From contig CAYYQL010000018.1 in assembly GCA_964473825.1 (NCBI GenBank), positions 14,622-45,544 of the forward strand: DNA of 30,923 bases. The letters run 5' to 3'. This document shows positions 1 through 30,500 of the stretch, piece by piece (within the stretch, counting starts at the first letter, position 1; each line of letters starts with the position of its first letter). The translations under genes and the position numbers were made by a program. Source of the stretch: an uncultured archaeon. Lineage in GTDB: Archaea; Asgardarchaeota; Thorarchaeia; Thorarchaeales; Thorarchaeaceae. Under the pieces are notes generated by a model. It worked only from the letters and a program-made list of their open reading frames with translations. It did not search any database and had not been told where the DNA came from.

Positions 1-3000
1 GGATGGGGCACTTGGAACTGGACGAATGCAGTACATGTCTACAATGAAAGCGATGGACTCCACTTCAGGATTCATGTCAATACGATGTTTTGGCAAATGA
101 ACGTCACGGATTCCGCATACACCGTTGTCGTGACTGCTCATACTGATCCCTATATCGACCCAACTCCACTTACATTCTATATCACTGTAAAGGCCACATC
201 AACAACACTCGGAAAGAGCACGAGCGCCATCGACGAGTTCTATAAGACACACGAAACTCACGACTTCTGGCTAACCATCAGTACTCCAACTGTCACAAAT
301 TTGACAGACCTGGATGTACACACATACCTTGTCAAACTGGGTGCCACGAACGTGAGCTGGGGCGAGCTGACAGATAATGGCGACTACTACACCTTGCCTA
401 CCAGTGCTCTGCATGGATTGCCTGTGGGATTCTATACAGTCACGATTGCTCTGTCGAAGCAGAACTATGTCAACAGGACGGTTGTCCTAGATGTCAATAT
501 CGACCCTGTCCCGATGATGGTAGATTCGTTGATTGCGAACAGCTACCTCTGGGACACTGGAAGTGAAATCATTGCCTTCGAGTTCATAAACGACCTGAAC
601 GGAAGCAATCCCGAACTCTCGGGGGTTACAGTGACGTTACAGTGGTTCACTGGCAGCTGGGTATCTATTTACAATATGACACCTCGGACACTCAGTCCAA
701 CGCTTGGAACCTACACAACGACCTTCCCCTCTGATTTGTTGGATGCTAGTGCCGATTATTTCTTGCGGGTCACCTGTTCTAAAGCCAATTACGAGACAGC
801 CGCGGCTAACTCCTCATCGCTCCATGTTAGTCCTGCACCAACGACTCTTGATATCGTGAGTTCATCCACAACAATTGTGGACTGGCTAGATGCTGGCATG
901 TTTGACCTCTCATTTGTTCGTGATAGCGGGAGTGTGGGCCTGTCCGGTGCTTCTATAACGAACAACTGGACCCAGCCGATGTCAGTGAGTTATCAGGGCT
1001 CTGGCACCTACAGGCTGAGTTTTGATACGTCAGTACCCTCGGGTTCCTATACCATTGATCTGGCCTTTTCTCTGGCAAACCACGTTGATGGTCTGGCTCA
1101 AGTCGAACTGACTGTCCGGATTCCATTGCTGATTGAGGCGGATTTCAGTTCAATAGAGAATTCACTTGAGACCTATTGGACCCATTCTTTCGATATCAAT
1201 ATCACCCTCTACGACCAATCGAGAACCGACACTCACGTGGTGGCCGCAGCTATCACCTACTCGTGGTATATGGAGTCAGTGATTGATCAGAGCGGAACAC
1301 TGACAGAAGGGCCCTCAGGGCTCTACTATATGACTCTGAATGCAAATGATGCCCTTCCAAACGACCTCTCCTATATCGATGACTACTACACCATTGTGCT
1401 CACGGCTGAGAAGTCGGGATGCACCACCGCAGTATCCACAATCTACGTGGTGATCAGTTCAACTCCTAATGAGATTGTGTTGGCTCAAGATTACTATGAG
1501 CAGTTCTATGATGACACATTCGACGTTTCGTTCTACTGGAATAACACCCTGGATAATGCCCCGATAACCGAGTTCGAGACCGCAACTTATGCCGTTTTAG
1601 ATATCTCAGCCAACGTCACAACCGGTGTGAACGAAGGTACAGGATGGTACACCATCAGCCTCAACACCAGAGAACTGGGCATGATTGCAGCGGTCCAAGG
1701 GTCGGTATACGTCTTACGCATCAGGATGACACTTAGCGGGTTTGAGTCCCACGAGCTAACAACCGTGGTGGTTCTGATTCGAGAGGCTCCGACTGCTCTC
1801 ATCATAGAAGAGATTAGTGAAGTGAACTGGAGCGACCAACTGGAGATAGTGGCCCGTCTCTGGGACACAGAGCATAACGTATTGGTCGATGGCCCCGCAG
1901 AGGCCACTCTCATGGTTTACGGTACCGACTACAGTCAAGTTGCCAGCAACAATGGTTCTGGAATATTCATTTGGACGGTCCAGACCGATGACTGGTTCAG
2001 CGGGAGCACAGAGTACCTCTTCGAGTTCGCGTACTCGCTTGAGAACTATGTTGATGGCTCAAACTCAACAAACATCTACCTGAACCCGATTCTCGCAGTG
2101 ATCACGAAGGATGTATCGCAAACAACCCCCATTTCTGTGGTCTGGAGTGAGGAGTTCGGCCTTCGAGTTAATGTTAACCAAGACTACGGTACACTGAGCA
2201 GTCCCATCAATGGTCTGACTGTAACGTACACATGGCTGGGCACATCCGTTTCTGGTGTCTTCACAGGCATTGGCAATGGTGGATATATCACCACAGTCAA
2301 CTCCAGCGAGATTCCTGTTGGCGAATATGTGCTTGTGGTTGATACATCTAACCAGAACTACACCTTCAGTAGCTGGAGTGTAGATGTCACGGTGAGTCCT
2401 GTGCTAGCCGACCTTCATCCGAGCCAGAGCTCCTTTGAGGGGATCTATGGTGGGTCTGCCTTCACAGTACGGTTGACGTACAACATCAGCTCAGGCATGA
2501 CTTTCGCTGGTCGCATCCTTGAGAATGCTGGAGTGGTTTCAGACTTCGGTGGCGGTCAGGTTGGAACTTGGGATGCATCAACGGGGACTTACAGGTTTGT
2601 TATTGATCCAACGACGCTGGATGCTGACCTGATACCTGGCGTCTTCACGGTTAATTTCACGGCCACACTGGAGAACTACACCACGGCCACGATACAAGTC
2701 ATCTTGGACATTTCGGCATCGACGAGTCTAACTGTGCCGAACATCCAAGTACAAATCGGTCAGACTGCCACAATATACGTGAATTACTATGATAGCACGA
2801 AGGCTCAACAGGTACCGTTCGACGCAGTGACCTCGCTGACATTGACAACACCTCTCGCTGAGTTCTCAAAGGATGACTTCCAAGTTGCAGATGACGGTCG
2901 GTACTACCTAGAGATATCCCCGTCACAGATTGGAGAAATCAGCAGTGAGCCCTACACACTTACAGTGAGTGTTATAGCTGACGGCTATGAGCGCCAGATT

Positions 3001-3912
3001 GGTGTCAGCGCCGAGGCTCGTGTCATAGAAACTCAGTATACAATTCCTCTCGTCGTTACCACGCTTGTCATTCCACAGTCTCAGCTCTTCTTATTCCTGA
3101 TGATGATAGGTGGCTTCATCGTGGTCGGTACCGTAGTCACGGCGGTGCGGAGATGGAGAATGCCCTACCAGATCAAGCAGATCAACTCGGCTCTCAAGGA
3201 CATCGAAGACAACAAGAGAGCTAAGGTTGAGGGCATCAAGAACATGGGGATGGTAGTTTCAGAGCTCCTAGCTCCAGGTCTTGCAAATCTCGATATTGAA
3301 ACGCCGCATATCGATGTCGCCCCAGAAGTTGGTTACGAGGAAATTCTCGGCGAGGATACTGAAGACCTCTTGGGCGAACTCGACGCCTTGGATGAAGTTG
3401 GGGAAGAGGGTGCGGCTGACTTAGACGACGTTGAGGTGCGGGACTACGAGGCCGAGCTTGAGGCAGAACTCGAGTCAGTAGAGGAAGGCGCAGAGGTAGA
3501 GGTTGACGAAGAAGCTGAAGCAGAAGTTGAATCCGAGACAGAAGCTGAGGAAGAAGCTGAAACAGATGCTGAGAGTGCCGAAGAGCCATCTGAGGTCCCT
3601 GAACTTGAGGAGGAAACTGAAGCGGAAATCGAGCCTGAGGAAGAAATAGACGCAGATTTCGAACCTGAACCAGAGGAGGAGGTCGAGGCGGAAGAAGAAC
3701 CCTCTGAAGAAGAAGCCGAGGTCGAGCCCGAGGATGCAGCAACTGAAGAAGAGCCCGATTCAGAACCCTCTGAGGATAATCGAAAGATGGAGCTCATCGA
3801 GAAACTTCCCGACGAAATCAGAGAGGCTATCCCAACCGAGGATCTGAAGCTGCTTAGCATTGAGGAATTGGAGGCACTTCTCGAATCTGATGCCGAGTTT
3901 CTAGGAGAATAA
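1..3912 (+). CDS. Giant single-pass cell-surface protein with tandem Ig-like/beta-sandwich repeats, C-terminal TM helix and acidic cytoplasmic tail (5'-partial)
   Basis: Frame is open from position 1 (GWGTWNWTNAVHVYNES...), so the true start probably lies upstream of the window. About 9 repeats of ~105-115 aa share G-x-Y...Y-x-[LIV]...[KL]-x-[NG]-Y; many N-x-S/T sequons; hydrophobic helix LFLFLMMIGGFIVVGTVVTAV followed by RRWR; Glu-rich tail. Confidence 0.85.
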   Translation, partial: GWGTWNWTNAVHVYNESDGLHFRIHVNTMFWQMNVTDSAYTVVVTAHTDPYIDPTPLTFYITVKATSTTLGKSTSAIDEFYKTHETHDFWLTISTPTVTNLTDLDVHTYLVKLGATNVSWGELTDNGDYYTLPTSALHGLPVGFYTVTIALSKQNYVNRTVVLDVNIDPVPMMVDSLIANSYLWDTGSEIIAFEFINDLNGSNPELSGVTVTLQWFTGSWVSIYNMTPRTLSPTLGTYTTTFPSDLLDASADYFLRVTCSKANYETAAANSSSLHVSPAPTTLDIVSSSTTIVDWLDAGMFDLSFVRDSGSVGLSGASITNNWTQPMSVSYQGSGTYRLSFDTSVPSGSYTIDLAFSLANHVDGLAQVELTVRIPLLIEADFSSIENSLETYWTHSFDINITLYDQSRTDTHVVAAAITYSWYMESVIDQSGTLTEGPSGLYYMTLNANDALPNDLSYIDDYYTIVLTAEKSGCTTAVSTIYVVISSTPNEIVLAQDYYEQFYDDTFDVSFYWNNTLDNAPITEFETATYAVLDISANVTTGVNEGTGWYTISLNTRELGMIAAVQGSVYVLRIRMTLSGFESHELTTVVVLIREAPTALIIEEISEVNWSDQLEIVARLWDTEHNVLVDGPAEATLMVYGTDYSQVASNNGSGIFIWTVQTDDWFSGSTEYLFEFAYSLENYVDGSNSTNIYLNPILAVITKDVSQTTPISVVWSEEFGLRVNVNQDYGTLSSPINGLTVTYTWLGTSVSGVFTGIGNGGYITTVNSSEIPVGEYVLVVDTSNQNYTFSSWSVDVTVSPVLADLHPSQSSFEGIYGGSAFTVRLTYNISSGMTFAGRILENAGVVSDFGGGQVGTWDASTGTYRFVIDPTTLDADLIPGVFTVNFTATLENYTTATIQVILDISASTSLTVPNIQVQIGQTATIYVNYYDSTKAQQVPFDAVTSLTLTTPLAEFSKDDFQVADDGRYYLEISPSQIGEISSEPYTLTVSVIADGYERQIGVSAEARVIETQYTIPLVVTTLVIPQSQLFLFLMMIGGFIVVGTVVTAVRRWRMPYQIKQINSALKDIEDNKRAKVEGIKNMGMVVSELLAPGLANLDIETPHIDVAPEVGYEEILGEDTEDLLGELDALDEVGEEGAADLDDVEVRDYEAELEAELESVEEGAEVEVDEEAEAEVESETEAEEEAETDAESAEEPSEVPELEEETEAEIEPEEEIDADFEPEPEEEVEAEEEPSEEEAEVEPEDAATEEEPDSEPSEDNRKMELIEKLPDEIREAIPTEDLKLLSIEELEALLESDAEFLGE

Positions 3913-4255: not shown

Positions 4256-5137
4256 ATGATTCGCGAGATATACGTGTTCAAGGAAGGACAGACCCTTTTC
4301 AAAGATGTTATTGTCCCAAACAACGACCTTGACACGGATGCGGTTATGATGCTTGTTTCTTCTTCGGCCATGAAGCTCCAAGAGTGGAAGATAGACAGTA
4401 TGGAGATCGAGCGATTTCGATATGTATACATGAATTCACATGATACCCAATTCATTGTCACAATGGATCGTCAGGCTTCGTTGCAGAAGGTGACGGAGGC
4501 CATGATGAACATGGTTTCAAAATTCATGACTGCCTTTGAGAGCGTCCTAGAGTCTGACGAATGGAAATCGACAGACTTCTCTCCCTTCAAGGTCGGATTT
4601 CGCTCTCTTGTAGGCCGGATTCCCGTGAAGGTATGTCTTGCCGGACATGGTGGAACTGGTAAGACCACTCTTCTTGAGCTCGCAACTCTGCCCTCCCAAG
4701 GCCCCCCTCAGGAGTATGTTCCAACTTTCTTTGGTGACAAGGCTCTACTTAAGGCGGACTTCGACCCCTATGTTTTTAGTATGTTCGACCTCGGAGGTCA
4801 AGACAGGTTTGTGCAGGAGTGGGGGAAGATTATTCGTGCAGGAAGCATGGTTATCCTGGTCACTGATTCTACCGAGGAGAACATGGCTTGGACGAAACGT
4901 GTAGCATACCCCGTGCTGAAGTCTGAATTACCTTATGCGCGTGCAGTCGCAATAGCCAACAAACAGGACTTGAAGGGGGCACTCTCACCTGAAGAAGTTG
5001 GCCGACGCTTGGATGTTCCAGCATATGGAATGCAGGCAAATAAGAGGGATTTTCGTGACCGGTGGCTCAAGCTGTTGAAAGGTGTGGCGTTTGAAACATT
5101 GGAATACAGAATCGTCAATGAGATAGAGGTCGAATAA
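4256..5137 (+). CDS. Longin-like domain fused to an Arf-like small GTPase
   Basis: G1 GHGGTGKTT, G2 YVPT, G3 FDLGGQDRF, G4 ANKQD, G5-like GMQA. The N-terminal ~120 aa show the beta-beta-alpha-beta-beta-beta-alpha-alpha pattern typical of longins (MIREIYVFKEGQTLF...YVYMNSHDTQFIVTMD...). Confidence 0.88.
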   Translation: MIREIYVFKEGQTLFKDVIVPNNDLDTDAVMMLVSSSAMKLQEWKIDSMEIERFRYVYMNSHDTQFIVTMDRQASLQKVTEAMMNMVSKFMTAFESVLESDEWKSTDFSPFKVGFRSLVGRIPVKVCLAGHGGTGKTTLLELATLPSQGPPQEYVPTFFGDKALLKADFDPYVFSMFDLGGQDRFVQEWGKIIRAGSMVILVTDSTEENMAWTKRVAYPVLKSELPYARAVAIANKQDLKGALSPEEVGRRLDVPAYGMQANKRDFRDRWLKLLKGVAFETLEYRIVNEIEVE

Positions 5138-5138
5138 T

Positions 5139-5708
5139 ATGGATATTTCAGAGGAATCCTCACGAAACGTAATGGACGAGAAGGAACGTAAGAGGCTCAT
5201 TACCGAGATTGGACGAATTAAGGAGGTTCTTGACAGTTTCAAATACGGACTGAACTTCGAGGAGTTTGCGGATGAGGTTTTCAAGACTGTGAATCGTCAG
5301 ACAGTGGTAGTCAAGCGTCTGGAGTCGACGATGCTTCAAATTATGGATCGGATGAATGCCTTGGAAACGAAGCTGGATGAAGGAATAGAAGTCCGAGTGG
5401 CTTCCGTTTCGGGCGACCTGGAGATTGGTGAGAGCAGAACGGGGGTCACCACTGACGTGGCGATGGAATCGGAGGGTGATGTGGTTTCAGAGGGGGAAAT
5501 AGAGCGAAGTCGAAAGCAACTTGAGAGCGAGGCATCCGAATTAGAGATGAAGATTAGCCGCTTATTTGAGAAAGAAAACGAGCTGTTGGAAATGGGCCTG
5601 AATGATCCTGCTAGTGCGGAGGAATATGAGGAAAAGGCACGAGTGGCCAGAGAGATGCGCTTAGACTTAAAGAATCAGCTCAAGATTATCAAGCAAGAAC
5701 TAGACTAA
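5139..5708 (+). CDS. Hypothetical alpha-helical/coiled-coil protein
   Basis: Starts 1 nt after the GTPase stop; two heptad-rich helical regions separated by an acidic linker. Confidence 0.8.
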   Translation: MDISEESSRNVMDEKERKRLITEIGRIKEVLDSFKYGLNFEEFADEVFKTVNRQTVVVKRLESTMLQIMDRMNALETKLDEGIEVRVASVSGDLEIGESRTGVTTDVAMESEGDVVSEGEIERSRKQLESEASELEMKISRLFEKENELLEMGLNDPASAEEYEEKARVAREMRLDLKNQLKIIKQELD

Positions 5709-9787: not shown

Positions 9788-10339
9788 ATGACAAAGCTGG
9801 AATATCTGATGGTCTATGCGGAATCTGGTCTTCCTATCTACAGCAAGTGTTTTGGGGGATTTTGCAGAGCGGCCTTCAAGAATCCCGAAATGTTATCTGG
9901 TCTGCTCTCCGCCATAGAAACAATACCCCCAACTCTAGGGGCTGGGCTATCCTTGAACTCGATCACGATGGGGCATACCCAGATGCGGTTCTCAAAGAAG
10001 ATGCCGAGCGGCCACTCGGTCGTCATCGGACTCTCTGAGGAGGCTCCTGAGGTTGTTCAGGCTGTATTCGAGGCTGTTTCCGATGTGCTCGATATGCCCA
10101 ACTTTCGGGAAAAGGACTGGGGCACTATCACTCGCGACGAGATGGATGAATTCAAAGAAGAGCTGCTTAAACGCTCATTGGTTGACGCTCTTCATGATCA
10201 CGGCGGCTTTGAGGATGCATGCCCTCTGGGCGACCAATGCCCGATGCATACCGATGCAGTGATGTCTCGCAGAGAAACGATCTGGAATTCAATGAAAGCG
10301 AAATATCGCGCTCTCAGAGAGAAGATGTCCCGGAAATAG
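9788..10339 (+). CDS. Longin-like domain protein with Cys/His-rich C-terminal motif
   Basis: N-terminal LEYLMVYAESGLPIYS and LSGLLSAI helix are typical of longin-like domains; CFGGFC and CPLGDQCPMH motifs. Confidence 0.7.
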   Translation: MTKLEYLMVYAESGLPIYSKCFGGFCRAAFKNPEMLSGLLSAIETIPPTLGAGLSLNSITMGHTQMRFSKKMPSGHSVVIGLSEEAPEVVQAVFEAVSDVLDMPNFREKDWGTITRDEMDEFKEELLKRSLVDALHDHGGFEDACPLGDQCPMHTDAVMSRRETIWNSMKAKYRALREKMSRK

Positions 10340-10371: not shown

Positions 10372-12162
10372 CTAGTCCTTTGCGAAGGCTACAATCCTGA
10401 AGACTCCCTCGTGTTCCTCAATGGTTGCTATGAAACTATCACCAGGTGACACGGTGAGTAGCTCGTACCAATCGGTCGTGTTCATCCAGTCTGCCATTCC
10501 CTCAATCCACTCAAAGGTCGAGTTGTCCGTTCTCAGAACGATGTGGGTGTTACCGTCCGATACATAGGATGTTACATTCAGGGCTGTTGCACTAAGGTCA
10601 AAGCGTTCGTCTTCGGTTGGAGGCTCTACAAAGCCGAGCATCTCTTCTACCTCTTCGATGTATCCTTCTCTCACGGCAGCGACGAGATCCGGATTGGAGG
10701 TTGTTCCCTTGGATTGAGTGAAGGAGAGTCCCTCCGTCTGTGCGTCCACGATGCCGAACGCGTGGAGTCTGAAGTCACTTATCTCATATGCCTCGGCATC
10801 CTCGTTGTAGGTGGAGTCATACCAGTAGACCGGGCAGTACCATGTCTGACGAATATAGGTTGAGTTGATTTGTACTGGATACAACAGTGGCATAGCTCCA
10901 AAATATGACCCGCTGACAGGTTGTGCAAACTGCTTGATCACTTCGTTGACTGCAGCCTCGCCGCTGACAAACGAAAGATTGGACATATCATAGTAATGGA
11001 TACCATCTGAAGTACCTCTCATAAGACCACTAAGAGTGAGGCTAGCTGCATCGGGTGGATGTAGCGCGACTAATGCCTCTACACGGTCCGTATCAGGGTT
11101 GAGTATGTATCTGGTATCCTCTGTCATCCTAAGTCTATCTCTTGACGCTTGGATGAACCACAAGAACCCTCCGGCGAAGAGGTCGAATCCGTCGTCCCTT
11201 CTATATCCGCCCCAGCGGTTTATCTGACGCTCCAACCATTCCTCAGAATATGCCTGTGTTATCCAGTCGGGTGTTTCTGCTAGAGTTGCGTATGTTCTCA
11301 CTGTACCATTCTGACAGTAGACCTTTGGTCCCAAGGGGCGCTCGATAAAATCCCAGCCAAGTTGTGTACGTGTCTGTACATAGACCAGATTGTTAGCAGG
11401 ATCCCAGGTGGGGTAGGCATACTCGTACGCAGATGTCATGTCTTCGAGGTAGTTACCAAACTGAATGTTTCGATCCCAGAAGAGCCCCTCACCTACAGGT
11501 ATCTGTACGTCTGTGATGACTTCAACCAAACTTGGATTGTTTGCATCTACTACGATAAAGCCTTGGATGAAGTTCTCTGAAAGGACGTTAGTGGACACGA
11601 CTATACAAACCCACACGAGCCGCCCGGCACGGGTTGTAATGTGCGAAGCAGCAATCTCAACATTTGAGCCTATCGATGACAGAAACTTCCTTGCAACAAA
11701 TGAAGCATAGAGCGAAGTCACGAGGCGAACTCGATCATCAGGTATTGGGTTGTTGAACAGCATTCCTTCTTCTTCGGTGATGAACTCGTTTACTGTCTGT
11801 GCATTGGCAACATCTGATGTCCAAGTTATGACCCCAGTGAAGGCTGGAATGACCAGTACAATGATGAAACCCATGCACACAAATGGCAGCCTTAGCCCTT
11901 CCATAAGATCCTCGACTCGTCCTCCCGGACGGAAACCGCCTGAGAAAATCATGAGCACTCCAAAGCTCATGAGAAGACCGATGGTGGCCCAGGGCAGCGC
12001 CATCATGGAGAAGATGCAGATTATCACCCATGCGACAGTCCCCCATATCAATCGTAGAGGCAACCACCGAATAAGTGCTCGTGCTCTCAGCATTCCGGGT
12101 CTATATGGCAGAGGGATTGCGTGCACTAGTATTGAAATCAAGAGGAACAACATCACATTCAT
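10372..12162 (-). CDS. Uncharacterised membrane-anchored protein (N-terminal TM helices, large extracytoplasmic domain)
   Basis: 596 aa; AGGTGA SD; 3-4 hydrophobic helices in the first ~115 aa, then a beta-rich domain with N-glycosylation sequons. Confidence 0.8.
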   Translation of the reverse strand: MNVMLFLLISILVHAIPLPYRPGMLRARALIRWLPLRLIWGTVAWVIICIFSMMALPWATIGLLMSFGVLMIFSGGFRPGGRVEDLMEGLRLPFVCMGFIIVLVIPAFTGVITWTSDVANAQTVNEFITEEEGMLFNNPIPDDRVRLVTSLYASFVARKFLSSIGSNVEIAASHITTRAGRLVWVCIVVSTNVLSENFIQGFIVVDANNPSLVEVITDVQIPVGEGLFWDRNIQFGNYLEDMTSAYEYAYPTWDPANNLVYVQTRTQLGWDFIERPLGPKVYCQNGTVRTYATLAETPDWITQAYSEEWLERQINRWGGYRRDDGFDLFAGGFLWFIQASRDRLRMTEDTRYILNPDTDRVEALVALHPPDAASLTLSGLMRGTSDGIHYYDMSNLSFVSGEAAVNEVIKQFAQPVSGSYFGAMPLLYPVQINSTYIRQTWYCPVYWYDSTYNEDAEAYEISDFRLHAFGIVDAQTEGLSFTQSKGTTSNPDLVAAVREGYIEEVEEMLGFVEPPTEDERFDLSATALNVTSYVSDGNTHIVLRTDNSTFEWIEGMADWMNTTDWYELLTVSPGDSFIATIEEHEGVFRIVAFAKD

Positions 12163-25248: not shown

Positions 25249-28170
25249 TTGTCCAATCAGGAAGCCATCACAACAGCTCCATCAGAAGATGTGGATTATC
25301 ACACGATGCCACTTGATGATGTTGTCAAGCATCTTTCAACCGATGTGGCAAACGGACTCTCAGAGGAAGAGGTCAGGGCACGCCAGCAACAGTATGGGCC
25401 AAACGCCATCAAGAAAGTCAAGGGCAGTTTCTGGAAGGTATACTTGGCACCCATATTGAACTGGCTCATCACGATTTATCTTGTAAGCTCCTTTGCGCTT
25501 CTCTTCTTAGCGTGGGCTTTTCCCTCGCCAGAAACTGACATCAGCCAGGCCCTCCTCTGGTTGGCGGTTGTGACGGTCAATTGCATTGTGGCGATTTTTC
25601 AACAGTTTCGGGCACAGAAGAAGCTCGAAGCACTGGAGAAGCTGTCCACGGGCGAGTGTCGGATCATCCGAAACGGCACCGAGAAGGAAATCCTGCCTCA
25701 GGAGCTTGTGCCCGGTGACATTGTGAAGCTTGAGCAGGGCGACCGCGTGCCTGCTGATGCTCGTCTTGTCAATGCCTCCAATCTCAGTATTAATGAGGCC
25801 TCTCTCACGGGAGAGAGTGTTCCTGTGGCCAAAGAAGAGTCTGCAGAAGTATCAAGAAAGGCTCCCCTCACAGAAATGAAGAACATGGTCTTCCTTGGAA
25901 CATATGTTGCCACTGGAACTGCTTTGTCTATCGCAACAGCAACAGGTAGTAATACTGAGATTGGCAAGATACAGGGCTCTCTTGAACGACTGAATACAGG
26001 TGATATTCCTCTCAGGAAGAAGGTGAACAGGCTTGCGAAGTACCTCGGGATAGCCGCGGTCGGCCTTATGATCATCTCCATCCTATGGCGTGCCTTAGTT
26101 CTTCCACTGCTGGATGCTTCTGGTTTTGACTTCGGCATCTATGCGGTTGCTGCCCATCTCACTGAGGGAATAACCAGGGCAATGACGATCATGCCCATCA
26201 ATATCCCCCTGTTGACTACAATCGTGCTCTTGACAGGAGTATTGGCAATGGCCAAACAGGGAGTCATCATACGCGACCTCTCCGCCGTGGAGAGCCTAGG
26301 CCGGGTCAGCGTTATCTGTTCAGACAAGACCGGTACCATGACACGCAATGCAATGACTGTCACTTACATCTGCGACATGGAGCATCTCTACAAGGTGACA
26401 GGAACAGGCTACGAGCCTGAGGGCGCAGTCTATCGTGTACGAGATTCGAAACTCCGGGATAGCGCGAATCCTGAAGACTTGACGCTTGTTTCAGATATTT
26501 CTAATATGCCCCCCCTCAAGAAACTCATAGTATGTGGAGGAATCAACAACGACGCTGCTCTCATCAAGAAGCAGGTCACTGAAGAGGGTGAAGAAGTATG
26601 GACTCCTCTGGGTGATCCAACCGATGCTGCCCTTCTGACTTTGTTCCGCAAGAGTGGCTTAGATGAAGATGCGATTCGTTCTCAGTATAAGATTGTTGAA
26701 GAATTCCCCTTCGAGTCAGAACTCAAGAGGATGTCTAAGATATGCGAGGACGATAGTACGTACATTGCTTTTGTCAAGGGCGCCACTGAGGTGCTTCTTG
26801 AGCGCTGTGACTCAGTTCACAAGGGGAATAACGTATCTACACTGGACTCGGAGACGCGGCACAAGATAGAAGAGATGTCTGTATCATTTGCAGAGCAAGG
26901 CTATCGGGTCATTTCTTTGGCCTACAAGAACATGAATACAGTGCCTCGGTCGAACCGAGCACGTGAAGAGACAGAGAGCGGTCTTACATATATCGGGTTC
27001 GCCTCGTTGGTTGACCCGCCGAGATATGGGGTCCGCGAGGCTATAGATGCCTGCCACAGTGCAGGGATCAATGTCATTATGATTACGGGTGATGCCTCAG
27101 CAACTGCAAAGACTATTGCCTCAGATCTCAATATCATGTCTGACTTCTCTCTCGTCGCTGAGGGCACCGAGATTCCTGACCTGTCAGATGATGACTTTGG
27201 GCGAGTCAATGTGTTTGCCCGTGTTAATCCGGAGCATAAACAGGTCATCGTGGAGCGGTATCAGGATCAGGGTAAAGTAGTCGCTATGACTGGGGACGGA
27301 GTCAACGATGCGCTCGCGTTGGCGATGAGTGATGCTGGCATTGCAATGGGCATTACAGGCACCGATGTGGCCAAGGAGGCGGCTGACCTGGTCATCACCG
27401 ATGACAGTTTTGCTTCTATCGTGACCGGGGTTCACGAAGGACGAGGCCTGTTTGCCAAGATACGAATGATGGTGTATTTCTATATAGCCGTCAATCTCTT
27501 TGAGAGCATCATATTTTTCGGGGCGTTGTTCTTCCTTCCCGCGTATGTCAACATGCTGTCCTCATGGCAGAGCCTCTATCTTGTTGTGACAACGCACTCT
27601 TTTCCAGGTCTGGCTCTTGTGTTTGATAAGGTGTCACCCAATGCAATGAAAGAGAAACCTCGAGATAGCGAGGAGATAATCAACAGACCGTTTGCCAAGT
27701 TCATGGCCATCAATGTCCTCCTTATGGCCTTCGGAACAGGCATGGTATATTTCCTGACATTCACTGGTTGGATGGGAGTGGTCGGTCTGTATCCTGAGAA
27801 TATTGCCGGAACCTACGCAGGGATTGTAGACGCTCCCTTGAAAGCCACTATCATGATGCTAACAGTAATCCTCTTGGTGGAGAGCACATTAGTATTGACC
27901 ATACGCAGAATCAACATGCCCCTTCACGAGAGCCTGCGAGAGCCTGGCACCATTAGGTATGTATTCTTCCTGGGACTCATCTACTTGGCACATCTCCTGC
28001 TGATGTATGTGCCTGTCGTACAGGACATACTGAGTCTCTACGGTTTGGACTTCTACTTCATGCCGCTCACATCATACGACTGGTTCATCTGCATTATCTT
28101 GTCTCTTCCTGCAATCGTCGGAATGGAACTGTACAAGATGTACCTTAGGGACCGAAACATAGAGCTGTAA
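25249..28170 (+). CDS. P-type ATPase, P2-like backbone with atypical transport site
   Basis: GDRVPAD, LTGES, CSDKTGT, KGATE, DPPR, MITGD, TGDGVNDA; about 10 TM; TM4 reads PINIP instead of PEGLP. Confidence 0.95.
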   Translation: MSNQEAITTAPSEDVDYHTMPLDDVVKHLSTDVANGLSEEEVRARQQQYGPNAIKKVKGSFWKVYLAPILNWLITIYLVSSFALLFLAWAFPSPETDISQALLWLAVVTVNCIVAIFQQFRAQKKLEALEKLSTGECRIIRNGTEKEILPQELVPGDIVKLEQGDRVPADARLVNASNLSINEASLTGESVPVAKEESAEVSRKAPLTEMKNMVFLGTYVATGTALSIATATGSNTEIGKIQGSLERLNTGDIPLRKKVNRLAKYLGIAAVGLMIISILWRALVLPLLDASGFDFGIYAVAAHLTEGITRAMTIMPINIPLLTTIVLLTGVLAMAKQGVIIRDLSAVESLGRVSVICSDKTGTMTRNAMTVTYICDMEHLYKVTGTGYEPEGAVYRVRDSKLRDSANPEDLTLVSDISNMPPLKKLIVCGGINNDAALIKKQVTEEGEEVWTPLGDPTDAALLTLFRKSGLDEDAIRSQYKIVEEFPFESELKRMSKICEDDSTYIAFVKGATEVLLERCDSVHKGNNVSTLDSETRHKIEEMSVSFAEQGYRVISLAYKNMNTVPRSNRAREETESGLTYIGFASLVDPPRYGVREAIDACHSAGINVIMITGDASATAKTIASDLNIMSDFSLVAEGTEIPDLSDDDFGRVNVFARVNPEHKQVIVERYQDQGKVVAMTGDGVNDALALAMSDAGIAMGITGTDVAKEAADLVITDDSFASIVTGVHEGRGLFAKIRMMVYFYIAVNLFESIIFFGALFFLPAYVNMLSSWQSLYLVVTTHSFPGLALVFDKVSPNAMKEKPRDSEEIINRPFAKFMAINVLLMAFGTGMVYFLTFTGWMGVVGLYPENIAGTYAGIVDAPLKATIMMLTVILLVESTLVLTIRRINMPLHESLREPGTIRYVFFLGLIYLAHLLLMYVPVVQDILSLYGLDFYFMPLTSYDWFICIILSLPAIVGMELYKMYLRDRNIEL

Positions 28171-29255: not shown

Positions 29256-29462
29256 CTATTCTTCTTTCACAGTCTTGTTCAGGGCATCTACAAGCTTGTC
29301 CGTATCGATGCCATGTGCAGTTGCACCCTGCTCGATATTCTCGTATCTGGCAGCCATGCACCCTACACAATGTAGGCCCCATTCCATGAATGTTCTGGCT
29401 GTCTCTGGCCACTTCATTACTACTTCGGATATGCCCATTTCTTTAGTGATCGTCTGTGCCAT
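29256..29462 (-). CDS. DUF1858-domain (CxxC redox/Fe-S-associated) protein
   Basis: ITKEMGISEVV..WPE...F...GLHCVGC....ENIEQGA.AHGID. Confidence 0.9.
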   Translation of the reverse strand: MAQTITKEMGISEVVMKWPETARTFMEWGLHCVGCMAARYENIEQGATAHGIDTDKLVDALNKTVKEE

Positions 29463-29537
29463 TGTAATCACGCTTTATTCATTATCGTTAATTTTAACAA
29501 TAGTATACAATCGCTGTGGCCTAATATATTTTTGCTA

Positions 29538-30500
29538 TCAGGCCTCGAACACGAAACGGTCTCCCACACATCCCCTGATGTATCTGCTTCCGAAACTATC
29601 TCGCATCTCTTTCTGTGCCTTTGATCCTGTGCAGTGGATGGGCGTGATGTAATGCGGTTGGTGCTTTTCCAGGTCCGAGATTGTTGGATCTATCCTGTCT
29701 TCGTTCTTGCCACCCAAGTGAAATCCTCCAATGATGTTGAGAATATCGTTCTCCTGGGTCATGCTTGAGGCCTGTCGAGTGATGTTGACAACACCAGCGT
29801 GACTACATCCTGCCATTATGACTATCCCTCGCTCACCGACATGTGCCACCAAACAGCTGTCATCAATCACATCTTCATCCTCCACCCATTGTGAGTTGAT
29901 GAATGCCCTATGTCCCGGGAAGCCTCTCTCGTAGGAAGTGGTCCGAGGAATCTCTCCTCCTGTCATAAGGGTGGAGTCGGCAAGGAGCGTTGGATTGGGG
30001 CTGTAGACAAGCCTTCCGCCTGCACTCTCGATCTCCTGCTCTGTCGGCACTCTGGAGAACTCTCGGATTCTTTTCCAGAACAGAAACTTGCGCTCAACAC
30101 CCCTCTTGCGAAACATGGCTTCGTGGACGTAGACAGAAATCTCTGGCTTACCGATGGTCTCTATTGCACCGAGGAGACCGCCCATGTGATCCCAGTGCCC
30201 ATGGCTGATTGCAATCGCATCGATTTGTTCGAGGTCAATCCCTAACTTGGCCGCATTGTACAGGAGCAGTTCGCTCGACGGTCCAGTGTCATACAGCACC
30301 TGATGGGCTTCATCATCAACTTCTGTCTTGACCAAGAGAGCAAGCCCATGCCCTGACCGTAGGTTCAGTTCGTTCTTTTCAGGCTGTTCTATCCATTCAG
30401 GTGGTGGCGAGACTACCGGGGCCGTGGTCTGCTTGTAGCAGACGGAGTTGTCCACTAGGATTACGATCTCAAGTCTGTCTATAGGTTGAAGATGAGTCAC
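29538..30500 (-). CDS. MBL-fold metallo-hydrolase (archaeal DHPS-like family)
   Basis: ILVDN, GHGLALL, LYDTG, SHGHWDHMGG, GCSHAG, GGFHL, PIHCTG. Confidence 0.9.
   Translation of the reverse strand: MTHLQPIDRLEIVILVDNSVCYKQTTAPVVSPPPEWIEQPEKNELNLRSGHGLALLVKTEVDDEAHQVLYDTGPSSELLLYNAAKLGIDLEQIDAIAISHGHWDHMGGLLGAIETIGKPEISVYVHEAMFRKRGVERKFLFWKRIREFSRVPTEQEIESAGGRLVYSPNPTLLADSTLMTGGEIPRTTSYERGFPGHRAFINSQWVEDEDVIDDSCLVAHVGERGIVIMAGCSHAGVVNITRQASSMTQENDILNIIGGFHLGGKNEDRIDPTISDLEKHQPHYITPIHCTGSKAQKEMRDSFGSRYIRGCVGDRFVFEA

What the first reader, a model, noticed from the sequence alone, without database searches (positions are those of the whole stretch)
25249..28170. P2-like ATPase with a rewired transport site: PEGL replaced by PINI (reminiscent of flippase PISL) and TM6 Asp replaced by His
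The catalytic core is intact (TGES, DKTGT at 26323-26337, KGA, TGDGVND). TM4 reads MPINIP (26191-26208), losing the ion-binding Glu (SERCA E309). TM6 reads YLVVTTHSFPGLAL versus the canonical WVNLVTDGLPA.AL, losing N796 and changing D800 to His (27595-27597). TM5 N..E (AVNLFE) and a TM8 Glu (LLVES) remain. Established: P4 lipid flippases have Ile at the E309 position (PISL) and are regarded as eukaryotic. Inference: this is not a standard Ca2+ pump; it may move a different ion or a lipid/organic substrate, possibly as a P2-to-P4-like intermediate or a convergent form. It retains TGES rather than the P4 DGET.
Basis: partly seen in the sequence, partly recalled or inferred. Interest (0 to 1): 0.8.

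Follow-up and report, generated by a model that had tools for sequence, protein, structure and literature searches.

The report
Asgard P-type pump, rebuilt ion site
This gene encodes an intact ATP-driven membrane pump from an old, almost purely Asgard-archaeal sister branch of the calcium-pump family whose ion pocket has been rebuilt around two glutamates, two asparagines and a histidine, so it probably pumps a small cation other than calcium, and nothing marks it as a lipid flippase.

Summary
TM4 reads P-I-N-I-P, TM6 has His783 where Ca2+ pumps have Asp, and the TM5 N..E and TM8 Glu are kept. This is not decay. 120 of 121 close Thorarchaeota homologues carry IMPINIP, and 30 divergent representatives (33-64% identity) keep N318 (27/30), E752 (30/30), H783 (29/30) and E878 (28/30). 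A clade profile matches 382 of 400 genomes of the phylum. Old tandem paralogues (42-45% identical) both keep the site. In trees the clade is monophyletic (support 100) and lies outside the sampled canonical PEGL pumps (96-98), level with the P3 branch. The clade has also lost the conserved acidic residues of the TM1/TM2 ion path. This genome separately carries two canonical PEGLP pumps. The flippase or P4-intermediate reading is not supported: TGES not DGET, two buried glutamates, P4 model 103 bits against a cut-off of 431, and all 50 best fold matches are P2 cation pumps. Bona fide P3A proton pumps also have a hydrophobic residue at that TM4 position. Best reading: a one-site pump for a non-Ca2+ small cation, substrate unproven. 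This scan found orthologues before on other DNA. I found no paper describing the clade.

The parts
25249..28170 (+). Complete gene for a 973-aa P-type ATPase (TTG start; purine-rich GAGAGG 8-14 nt upstream)
   Evidence: ORF list and translation; Pfam Cation_ATPase_N, E1-E2_ATPase, Cation_ATPase, Hydrolase, Cation_ATPase_C; upstream sequence; AlphaFold2 model with mean pLDDT 81.5, pTM 0.70
25450..25452 (+). TM1 Pro68, which replaces the canonical Gln of the Q-F pair next to the ion gate
   Evidence: Pro in 27/30 clade members, Gln in 103/111 canonical relatives
25603..25605 (+). TM2 Gln119, which replaces a near-invariant canonical Glu of the cytoplasmic ion path
   Evidence: Acidic in 0% of the clade and 97% of canonical relatives; similar losses at positions 71, 97, 100 and 123
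25807..25818 (+). A-domain dephosphorylation motif TGES
   Evidence: kept in most clade members
26194..26208 (+). TM4 motif P316-I317-N318-I319-P320 in place of PEGLP; the helix is unwound here in the model
   Evidence: the model shows a helix break at 315-317
26323..26337 (+). Phosphorylation motif DKTGT (Asp359)
   Evidence: invariant in alignment A1
27292..27321 (+). Hinge motif GDGVNDALAL: the catalytic Asp residues are intact, but Leu689 replaces the near-universal Pro of GDGVNDAPAL
   Evidence: Leu in 83% of the clade, Pro in 96% of canonical relatives
27493..27504 (+). TM5 N749-L-F-E752, which corresponds to the SERCA site I ligands N768/E771
   Evidence: N in 26/30 and E in 30/30 clade members
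27583..27597 (+). TM6 V779-V-T-T-H783: the canonical Asn is replaced by a hydrophobic or aromatic residue and the canonical Asp by His
   Evidence: Position 779 is Y/F/V in the clade and N in 105/111 canonical relatives; position 783 is H in 29/30 and D in 98/111; LMCA1 alignment
27880..27882 (+). TM8 Glu878, which corresponds to SERCA E908 of site I
   Evidence: E in 28/30 clade members; canonical relatives have Q 68, E 32 of 111

Best explanation
The gene encodes a catalytically competent P-type ATPase of a distinct, ancient and nearly Asgard-specific lineage. That lineage is sister to the canonical PEGL (P2-type) pumps. The usual Ca2+ site II is abolished: the TM4 Glu is Ile, the TM6 Asn is hydrophobic or aromatic, and the TM6 Asp is His. 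The acidic residues lining the TM1/TM2 ion path are gone. What remains is a single polar pocket at the position of SERCA site I, formed by N749 and E752 (TM5), H783 (TM6), E878 (TM8) and N318 on the unwound part of TM4. Inferred mechanism: an ordinary E1/E2 Post-Albers cycle that moves one small cation other than Ca2+ per ATP. My leading guess is H+ or another monovalent cation, carried by the Glu-His pair, by analogy with the Asp-Arg pair of P3A proton pumps, which also have a hydrophobic residue after the TM4 Pro. A borderline transition metal (Mn2+, Fe2+ or Zn2+) bound by His plus two carboxylates is a close second. What is shown: the anatomy, its conservation, the phylogenetic position and the distribution. 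What is inferred: the substrate and the direction of transport.
For: Catalytic motifs and the P2-type domain set are intact. The general P-type model TIGR01494 gives 267 bits against a cut-off of 62. The site pattern is conserved in 120/121 close homologues and in 30 representatives down to 33% identity: N318 27/30, N749 26/30, E752 30/30, H783 29/30, E878 28/30. The clade is monophyletic with support 100 in three trees. The canonical PEGL pumps form their own group excluding it, with SH-aLRT 98 and 96. The clade profile matches 382/400 genomes of the phylum and 89/90 high-quality ones. Tandem paralogues only 42-45% identical both keep PIN[IL]P, N..E and His. All named members are Thor-, Odin-, Hel- or Promethearchaeota, apart from one MAG labelled Korarchaeota. 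Acidic residues at five conserved TM1/TM2 positions are lost. P3A proton pumps read PVAMP and PVAQP. This genome also has two canonical PEGLP pumps and two CPC heavy-metal pumps, so this gene is an addition and not the cell's Ca2+ pump. The model has TM4 unwound at 315-317, and its 50 best PDB fold matches are all P2 cation pumps.
Against: No experiment bears on the substrate. The gene neighbourhoods are unrelated housekeeping genes with no regulator, chaperone or subunit that could point to an ion. No riboswitch lies upstream. Four of the five SERCA site I ligand positions are kept, so a Ca2+ or Mg2+ specificity is not excluded. His is an unusual ligand for H+/Na+/K+ pumps of this superfamily. 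An ATP-driven proton pump would duplicate the role of the A/V-type ATPase. The trees contain no eukaryotic P2B/C/D, P4, P5 or P6 references, and the node joining the clade to the canonical P2 pumps is weak (61).
Confidence: 0.72

Rival explanations
1. It is a transition-metal pump (Mn2+, Fe2+, Zn2+, Co2+ or Ni2+) built on a P2 scaffold. The metal is bound by His783 plus Glu752 and Glu878, with the two Asn residues as further ligands, and it exports metals that are abundant in anoxic sediment.
For: The conserved ligand set His + 2 Glu + 2 Asn is typical of borderline-metal sites and untypical of Ca2+ sites (general coordination chemistry, my own knowledge). P1B-4 pumps use a TM6 His (own knowledge). 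Among the closest solved relatives is SPCA1, solved with Mn2+ bound. Near-universal presence in a sediment-dwelling phylum.
Against: There is no Cys, Met or His-rich metal-binding domain. No metal regulator or chaperone lies next to any of the five loci inspected. The acidic vestibule residues that could attract divalent cations are lost. The genome already has two CPC-type heavy-metal pumps.
Confidence: 0.28
2. It is, as the databases annotate it, a Ca2+ (or Mg2+) pump that uses only the site I position.
For: The best sequence and fold matches are LMCA1, SPCA1 and SERCA. Sources name homologues 'Ca2+-transporting ATPase'. N768, E771 and E908 equivalents are kept.
Against: The TM4 Glu and TM6 Asp, needed for Ca2+ binding in studied P2 Ca2+ pumps (established knowledge; PMC10654040 calls the TM6 Asp omnipresent in Ca2+ efflux pumps), are Ile and His in 29-30 of 30 clade members. 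All Ca2+-pump equivalog models fall well below their cut-offs. The clade lies outside the canonical group. The genome has two canonical PEGLP pumps.
Confidence: 0.07
3. It is a flippase-like pump for a lipid head group or another bulky organic substrate (polyamine, organic cation): a functional analogue or precursor of eukaryotic P4/P5 pumps.
For: A hydrophobic Ile sits at the gate position, as in PISL. The acidic ion path is lost. The clade is confined to the archaeal relatives of eukaryotes.
Against: The A-domain motif is TGES, not DGET. Two strictly conserved buried Glu residues plus a His are kept. TIGR01652 scores 103 bits against a cut-off of 431, and TIGR01657 scores 236 against 618. 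No PhoLip_ATPase domains match. No P4 or P5 structure appears among the 50 best fold matches. P3A proton pumps share the hydrophobic TM4 residue. No CDC50 match was found in the genome, though the control for that search was silent.
Confidence: 0.05
4. It is a decayed or non-transporting relic, or the motif changes are sequencing or assembly errors.
For: None found.
Against: The frame is uninterrupted. The same motifs occur in hundreds of independent assemblies. All catalytic residues are invariant across 28 sequences of 33-63% identity.
Confidence: 0.02

Closest known systems
Prokaryotic and Golgi P2A Ca2+-ATPases (Listeria LMCA1, PDB 9euq/6zhf; SPCA1/PMR1; SERCA)
   Same: Same domain order (Cation_ATPase_N, A, P, N, Cation_ATPase_C) and the same TGES/DKTGT/GDGVND catalytic set. 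They are the best sequence matches (E 1e-120 to 1e-100) and the best fold matches (TM 0.7-0.8). The TM5 N..E and TM8 Glu correspond to SERCA site I.
   Different: TM4 PEGLP is PINIP. The TM6 Asn and Asp are Val and His. The acidic TM1/TM2 path residues are lost. The hinge Pro of GDGVNDAPAL is Leu. Scores are 502 and 434 bits against cut-offs of 798 and 703. The clade branches outside the canonical group.
P3A plasma-membrane-type H+-ATPases (TIGR01647; examples L096 from a cyanobacterium, L097 from a Methanobacterium)
   Same: A hydrophobic residue follows the TM4 Pro (PVAMP/PVAQP against PINIP). Both are expected to have a single protonatable site. Both branch at about the same depth from the P2/P3 base.
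   Different: P3A pumps use a TM6 Asp and, in plant and fungal pumps, a TM5 Arg (PMC10654040). Here TM6 has His and TM5 has N..E with no Arg. TIGR01647 scores 332 bits against a cut-off of 615.5. The two form separate clades in all trees.
P6 ATPases (M. tuberculosis CtpE family, as proposed in PMC10654040)
   Same: They are another prokaryotic lineage outside P1-P5 in which the TM6 Asp is replaced.
   Different: According to that review, P6 pumps keep PEGL in TM4 and have Ile, not His, in TM6, and they are reported from bacteria. No P6 sequence was available to test relatedness directly.
P4 lipid flippases
   Same: Ile follows the TM4 Pro (PISL against PINI).
   Different: P4 pumps have DGET where this protein has TGES. 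There is no PhoLip_ATPase_N/C match. TIGR01652 scores 103 bits against a cut-off of 431. Buried Glu/Glu/His are kept. No Cdc50 was found (control silent). P4 pumps are eukaryotic only (PMC10654040).

Membership tests
P-type ATPase superfamily (HAD-IC, TIGR01494) | DKTGT phosphorylation site, TGES-type A-domain loop, TGD and GDGxND hinge motifs; model score over the cut-off | tested here: met
   All motifs are present and invariant in A1. TIGR01494 gives 267 bits against a cut-off of 62.3.
P2-type cation pumps (broad sense) | Cation_ATPase_N and Cation_ATPase_C domains, P2-like fold, TM4 unwound at a Pro | tested here: met
   Both Pfam domains score over their cut-offs. The model has a helix break at 315-317, and its 50 best PDB matches are all P2 pumps.
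P2-type cation pumps (broad sense) | PEGL motif in TM4 and a conserved Asp in TM6 | tested here: not met
   TM4 reads PINIP and TM6 has His783. In the clade the counts are 0/30 Glu and 0/30 Asp, against 110/111 and 98/111 in canonical relatives.
P2A/P2B/P2C/P2D equivalogs (TIGR01522, 01116, 01517, 01106, 01523) | Score over NCBIfam's curated cut-off | tested here: not met
   Scores against cut-offs: 502/798, 434/703, 401/507, 369/946, 414/645 bits.
Canonical prokaryotic P2A-like group | Branches within the PEGL clade in a tree | tested here: not met
   The PEGL pumps, including two TIGR01116-validated references and this genome's own two paralogues, form a group with SH-aLRT 98 and 96 that excludes the clade, which itself has support 100. 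Eukaryotic references are missing from these trees.
P3A H+-ATPase | TIGR01647 score over the cut-off; TM6 Asp as proton acceptor | tested here: not met
   332 bits against a cut-off of 615.5. His stands at the Asp position. The clade is separate from the validated P3A references.
P4 lipid flippase | DGET A-domain motif, PISL in TM4, PhoLip_ATPase_N/C domains, TIGR01652 score over the cut-off | tested here: not met
   The protein has TGES and PINI, there is no PhoLip match at E<=0.001, and TIGR01652 gives 103 bits against a cut-off of 431.
P4 lipid flippase | Cdc50 beta subunit encoded in the genome (P4A/P4C) | tested here: inconclusive
   PF03381 has no match in G000, which is 95.7% complete. 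The family rang in none of the prokaryotic control genomes either, so the search was not shown able to detect it.
P6 (CtpE) ATPase | PEGL kept in TM4, Ile in place of the TM6 Asp (PMC10654040) | tested here: not met
   This protein has PINIP and His783. Relatedness by tree was not tested because no P6 reference sequence was available.

The most novel reading that the evidence does not exclude
The clade is a new family-level branch of P-type ATPases, confined to Asgard archaea. Its His/Glu/Glu/Asn pocket would carry a substrate class not yet seen on a P2-type scaffold, for example ammonium or an organic cation, or a lipid or polyamine head group. That would make it a functional forerunner or analogue of the eukaryote-only P4/P5 pumps.
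Probability: 0.08. Interest if true: 0.9.

Novelty: new variant of a known kind. Interest (0 to 1): 0.58.

Why it matters
P-type ATPases are among the best understood pumps, and their families (P1 to P5, plus a proposed P6) are defined by their transmembrane ligand sets. The 2023 review by Palmgren (PMC10654040) expects further prokaryotic families but names none like this one. Here is a lineage present in about 95% of the sampled genomes of the archaeal phylum closest to eukaryotes, often in two old copies. Its ligand set (Ile/Asn in TM4, His in TM6, Glu in TM5 and TM8) has no studied counterpart. Public annotation calls it a Ca2+-ATPase, which is probably wrong, and one paper used such annotation to argue that Ca2+ signalling is important in Asgard archaea (PMC7997004; I did not check which protein that paper meant). 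Finding the substrate would add a new specificity rule to the superfamily and correct ion-homeostasis models for Asgard archaea. It does not currently bear on the origin of lipid flippases.

Tried and rejected
1. Gene neighbourhood as a clue to the substrate. In this window the neighbours are a subtilase and ketopantoate hydroxymethyltransferase. Four other clade loci have tRNA synthetases, an Arf-like GTPase, aldehyde:ferredoxin oxidoreductase or a DNA methylase next door. Nothing is conserved, so there is no clue.
2. Riboswitch or other RNA upstream. Rfam found nothing in the window.
3. The search for related loci on genome contigs with the clade alignment (the first try, got no answer). It was useless for distribution, although some of the loci led to the reference genomes.
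4. An archaeal P2C reference. TIGR01106 found nothing in the five handles or the controls.
6. Literature. No paper in the library holds 'PINIP' in this sense, and none links P-type ATPases of Asgard lineages to this site. The search for FUPA families gave nothing usable.
7. Decay or error was rejected on the conservation data.
8. P4, P5 and P6 could not be placed in the trees, because the tools gave no way to bring in reference sequences. Their exclusion rests on HMM scores, motifs and fold matches only.
That they converge is inferred from homology to SERCA site I.
Full report
OBSERVATION. The ORF at window 25249-28170 (+) is open for 973 codons from a TTG start. A purine-rich GAGAGG lies 8-14 nt upstream. 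Motif positions are TGES 187, MPINIP 315-320, DKTGT 359, KGA 510, TGDGVND 681, AVNLFE 747-752, TTHSFPG 781-787 and LLVES 875-879. Pfam finds the full type-II architecture: Cation_ATPase_N, E1-E2_ATPase, Cation_ATPase, Hydrolase and Cation_ATPase_C. HMMER aligns the protein to the Listeria Ca2+-ATPase LMCA1. There P-I-N-I-P falls on P-E-A-L-S, and V-V-T-T-H falls on N-L-V-N-D. In SERCA numbering (motif correspondence IPEGLP / NLVTDGLP, my own knowledge) the changes are E309->I317, G310->N318, N796->V779 and D800->H783. N768/E771 (N749/E752) and E908 (E878) are kept.

NOT DECAY. The 120 best database homologues are 63-95% identical, and where named they are Thorarchaeota or Promethearchaeota. 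Of 121 sequences, 120 carry IMPINIP, and all carry a His in T[TS]H[STV]FPG. An exhaustive search of 1.84 billion cluster representatives shows about 40 clusters (30 full-length, about 10 fragments) above roughly 520 bits that share the pattern. Among weaker hits everything reads PEGLP / NL.TD. In the 30 full-length representatives (33-64% identity to the query) the site columns are as follows. Position 317 is I21/V3/F3/W2/L1, against E in 110 of 111 canonical relatives. Position 318 is N27, against G105. Position 749 is N26. Position 752 is E30. Position 779 is Y/F/V, against N105. Position 783 is H29, against D98. Position 878 is E28, against Q68/E32. Thr782 is not conserved. The conserved pocket is therefore N(TM4), N..E(TM5), H(TM6) and E(TM8).

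FURTHER CLADE-SPECIFIC CHANGES. A screen for discriminating columns found 35 such positions. The most telling are in TM1 and TM2. The canonical Q-F pair of TM1 becomes P-[L/I], with P68 in 27/30. Five positions that are acidic in 53-97% of canonical pumps are acidic in only 0-27% of the clade: positions 71, 97, 100, 119 and 123. They include the near-invariant Glu of TM2, which is Q119 here. Together with the TM4 Glu and the TM6 Asp, seven conserved carboxylates of the ion path and site are gone. In the hinge, GDGVNDAPAL becomes GDGVNDALAL, while the catalytic Asp residues are untouched.

PHYLOGENY. I obtained labelled references by searching named genomes with curated models. These were P3A (L096, 1030 bits; L097, 920 bits), P3B (L102, L103) and SERCA-type P2A (L104, L105). 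I added this genome's own four other P-type ATPases. In a FastTree of 91 rows rooted on the two CPC pumps, the clade is monophyletic (support 100, stem 0.34) on an unresolved backbone. IQ-TREE on 52 rows gives a three-way split. The clade has SH-aLRT 100. P3A+P3B has 93. All PEGL pumps together have 98, and that group includes both validated P2A references and this genome's own C8 and C12 paralogues. Adding the ATPase halves of nine 1400-1700-aa fused relatives, which are the best non-clade hits, does not change this: clade 100, PEGL group 96, and a weak 61 joining the two. The lineage is thus sister to, not nested in, the sampled canonical P2 pumps. The limits are that no eukaryotic P2B/C/D, P4, P5 or P6 sequences could be included, and that the searches were quick ones without bootstraps.

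DISTRIBUTION. A profile of 28 clade members (A1) matches 382 of 400 genomes of the window's phylum at E<=1e-120, and 89 of 90 high-quality genomes. By my reading of the table, the best E-value is below 1e-200 in roughly 370 of them. The looser threshold could include canonical pumps. Many genomes of one family (f22) carry two copies in tandem. In three such pairs the copies are only 42-45% identical, yet both keep PIN[IL]P, N..E and the His. Every named member is Thor-, Odin-, Hel- or Promethearchaeota. The one exception is a MAG labelled Korarchaeota, whose contig carries an Arf-like GTPase near the pump and whose protein nests among Thor sequences, which suggests mis-binning or transfer. This genome (95.7% complete) also has two canonical PEGLP pumps and two CPC pumps, so the PINIP pump is an additional function.

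STRUCTURE. The AlphaFold2 model built on A1 has mean pLDDT 81.5 and pTM 0.70, and TM4 is broken at 315-317 exactly as in solved pumps. Its 50 best Foldseek matches in the PDB are all SPCA1, SERCA, Na,K-, H,K-ATPase or LMCA1 (TM about 0.6-0.8), with no P3, P4 or P5 entries.

WHAT IT IS NOT. It passes no equivalog cut-off. PMR1-type gives 502 against 798, SERCA-type 434/703, PMCA-type 401/507, P2C 369/946, P2D 414/645, P3A 332/615, P3B 327/611, P5 236/618 and P4 103/431. The flippase reading rests on Ile after the TM4 Pro. The validated P3A proton pumps read PVAMP and PVAQP, so that feature is shared with cation pumps. TGES rather than DGET, the absence of PhoLip_ATPase domains, the strictly kept buried Glu/Glu/His and the fold matches all speak against a P4-like function. 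A search for Cdc50 in the genome was negative but uninformative, because its controls were silent.

MECHANISM (inferred). The enzyme should run the normal phosphorylation and dephosphorylation cycle. SERCA site II cannot form. The site I position keeps four of its five ligand positions, with His replacing the bridging Asp and an extra Asn from TM4. His is a poor ligand for Ca2+ or Mg2+, the acidic vestibule is gone, and the cell already has PEGLP pumps, so Ca2+ is unlikely. I see two readings as comparably plausible. (a) Transport of H+ or a monovalent cation, with the Glu752/Glu878-His783 cluster as the protonatable or counter-charged element, analogous to Asp684-Arg655 of plant P3A pumps (PMC10654040). 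This fits the loss of the acidic funnel, the hydrophobic gate residue and the housekeeping-like distribution. (b) Transport of a borderline transition metal bound by His plus two carboxylates. This fits the ligand chemistry and the sediment habitat, but no metal-related neighbour, regulator or domain was seen. I put about 0.4 on (a), 0.28 on (b), 0.07 on Ca2+/Mg2+, 0.05 on lipid or organic substrates and 0.02 on decay, and leave the remainder for other or unforeseen substrates.

PRIOR KNOWLEDGE. Palmgren's 2023 review lists P1-P5 plus a proposed P6 (CtpE: PEGL kept, TM6 Asp->Ile) and expects more prokaryotic families. It says P4 pumps are eukaryote-only. A survey of Asgard transporters reports only 'a putative Ca2+ ATPase' and copper pumps (PMC7997004). 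No paper in the searchable library mentions this motif set. Within this scan the same clade was flagged on at least seven other windows, and three follow-ups reached the same general reading. I re-derived the observation, the conservation and the anti-flippase arguments independently. I add the loss of the acidic TM1/TM2 path, the hinge Pro->Leu change, the sister-group placement against validated P2A/P3A/P3B references, the 400-genome survey and the old tandem paralogues.

VERDICT. The substrate is unknown, probably a non-Ca2+ small cation. The flippase idea is not supported.

Noticed in passing
window 1-3912 (+): A very large ORF (at least 1275 aa, open at the window's 5' end) has no Pfam match at E<=1e-5.
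   Followed up: no
window 4256-5137 (+): A 293-aa protein carries an Arf-family small-GTPase domain at residues 123-254 behind an N-terminal extension of about 120 aa. This is a typical Asgard 'eukaryotic signature' gene. Arf-like GTPases also lie near the pump in two other clade loci (L091, L093), at varying distance and orientation.
   Followed up: partly
L110 (G154:C12:7800-14700), L111, L112: In one family of the phylum the pump occurs as two tandem genes only 42-45% identical. One copy reads P-I-N-L-P with Q-H...H-S-[FL]-P in TM6. The other reads P-I-N-[IL]-P with Q-W...H-[TM]-F-P. This is an old duplication whose two copies may differ in function.
   Followed up: partly
L091 (GCA_012974725.1 contig JABAHQ010001742.1): A MAG labelled Korarchaeota carries a clade member (P0128) that nests among Thorarchaeota sequences, with an Arf/Ras/Roc GTPase two genes downstream. 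The contig may be mis-binned Asgard DNA, or it may reflect a transfer.
   Followed up: partly
P0145, P0283 (JGI metagenome proteins): One clade member, sister to an Odinarchaeota sequence, has lost the His (TM6 reads T-Q-F-A-P), and it reads P-V-S-I-P in TM4 and S..E in TM5. It is a derived exception that could serve as a natural specificity variant.
   Followed up: no
P0158, P0166, P0176 and six more (1400-1700 aa): The best non-clade hits are long proteins with a canonical PEGL ATPase in the C-terminal half behind a 500-780-aa N-terminal region that I did not examine. They form their own group (support 99) inside the canonical pumps.
   Followed up: partly
window 10372-12162 (-), 5139-5708 (+), 9788-10339 (+), 29275-29652 (+): Four further ORFs of 125-596 aa have no Pfam match.
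   Followed up: no
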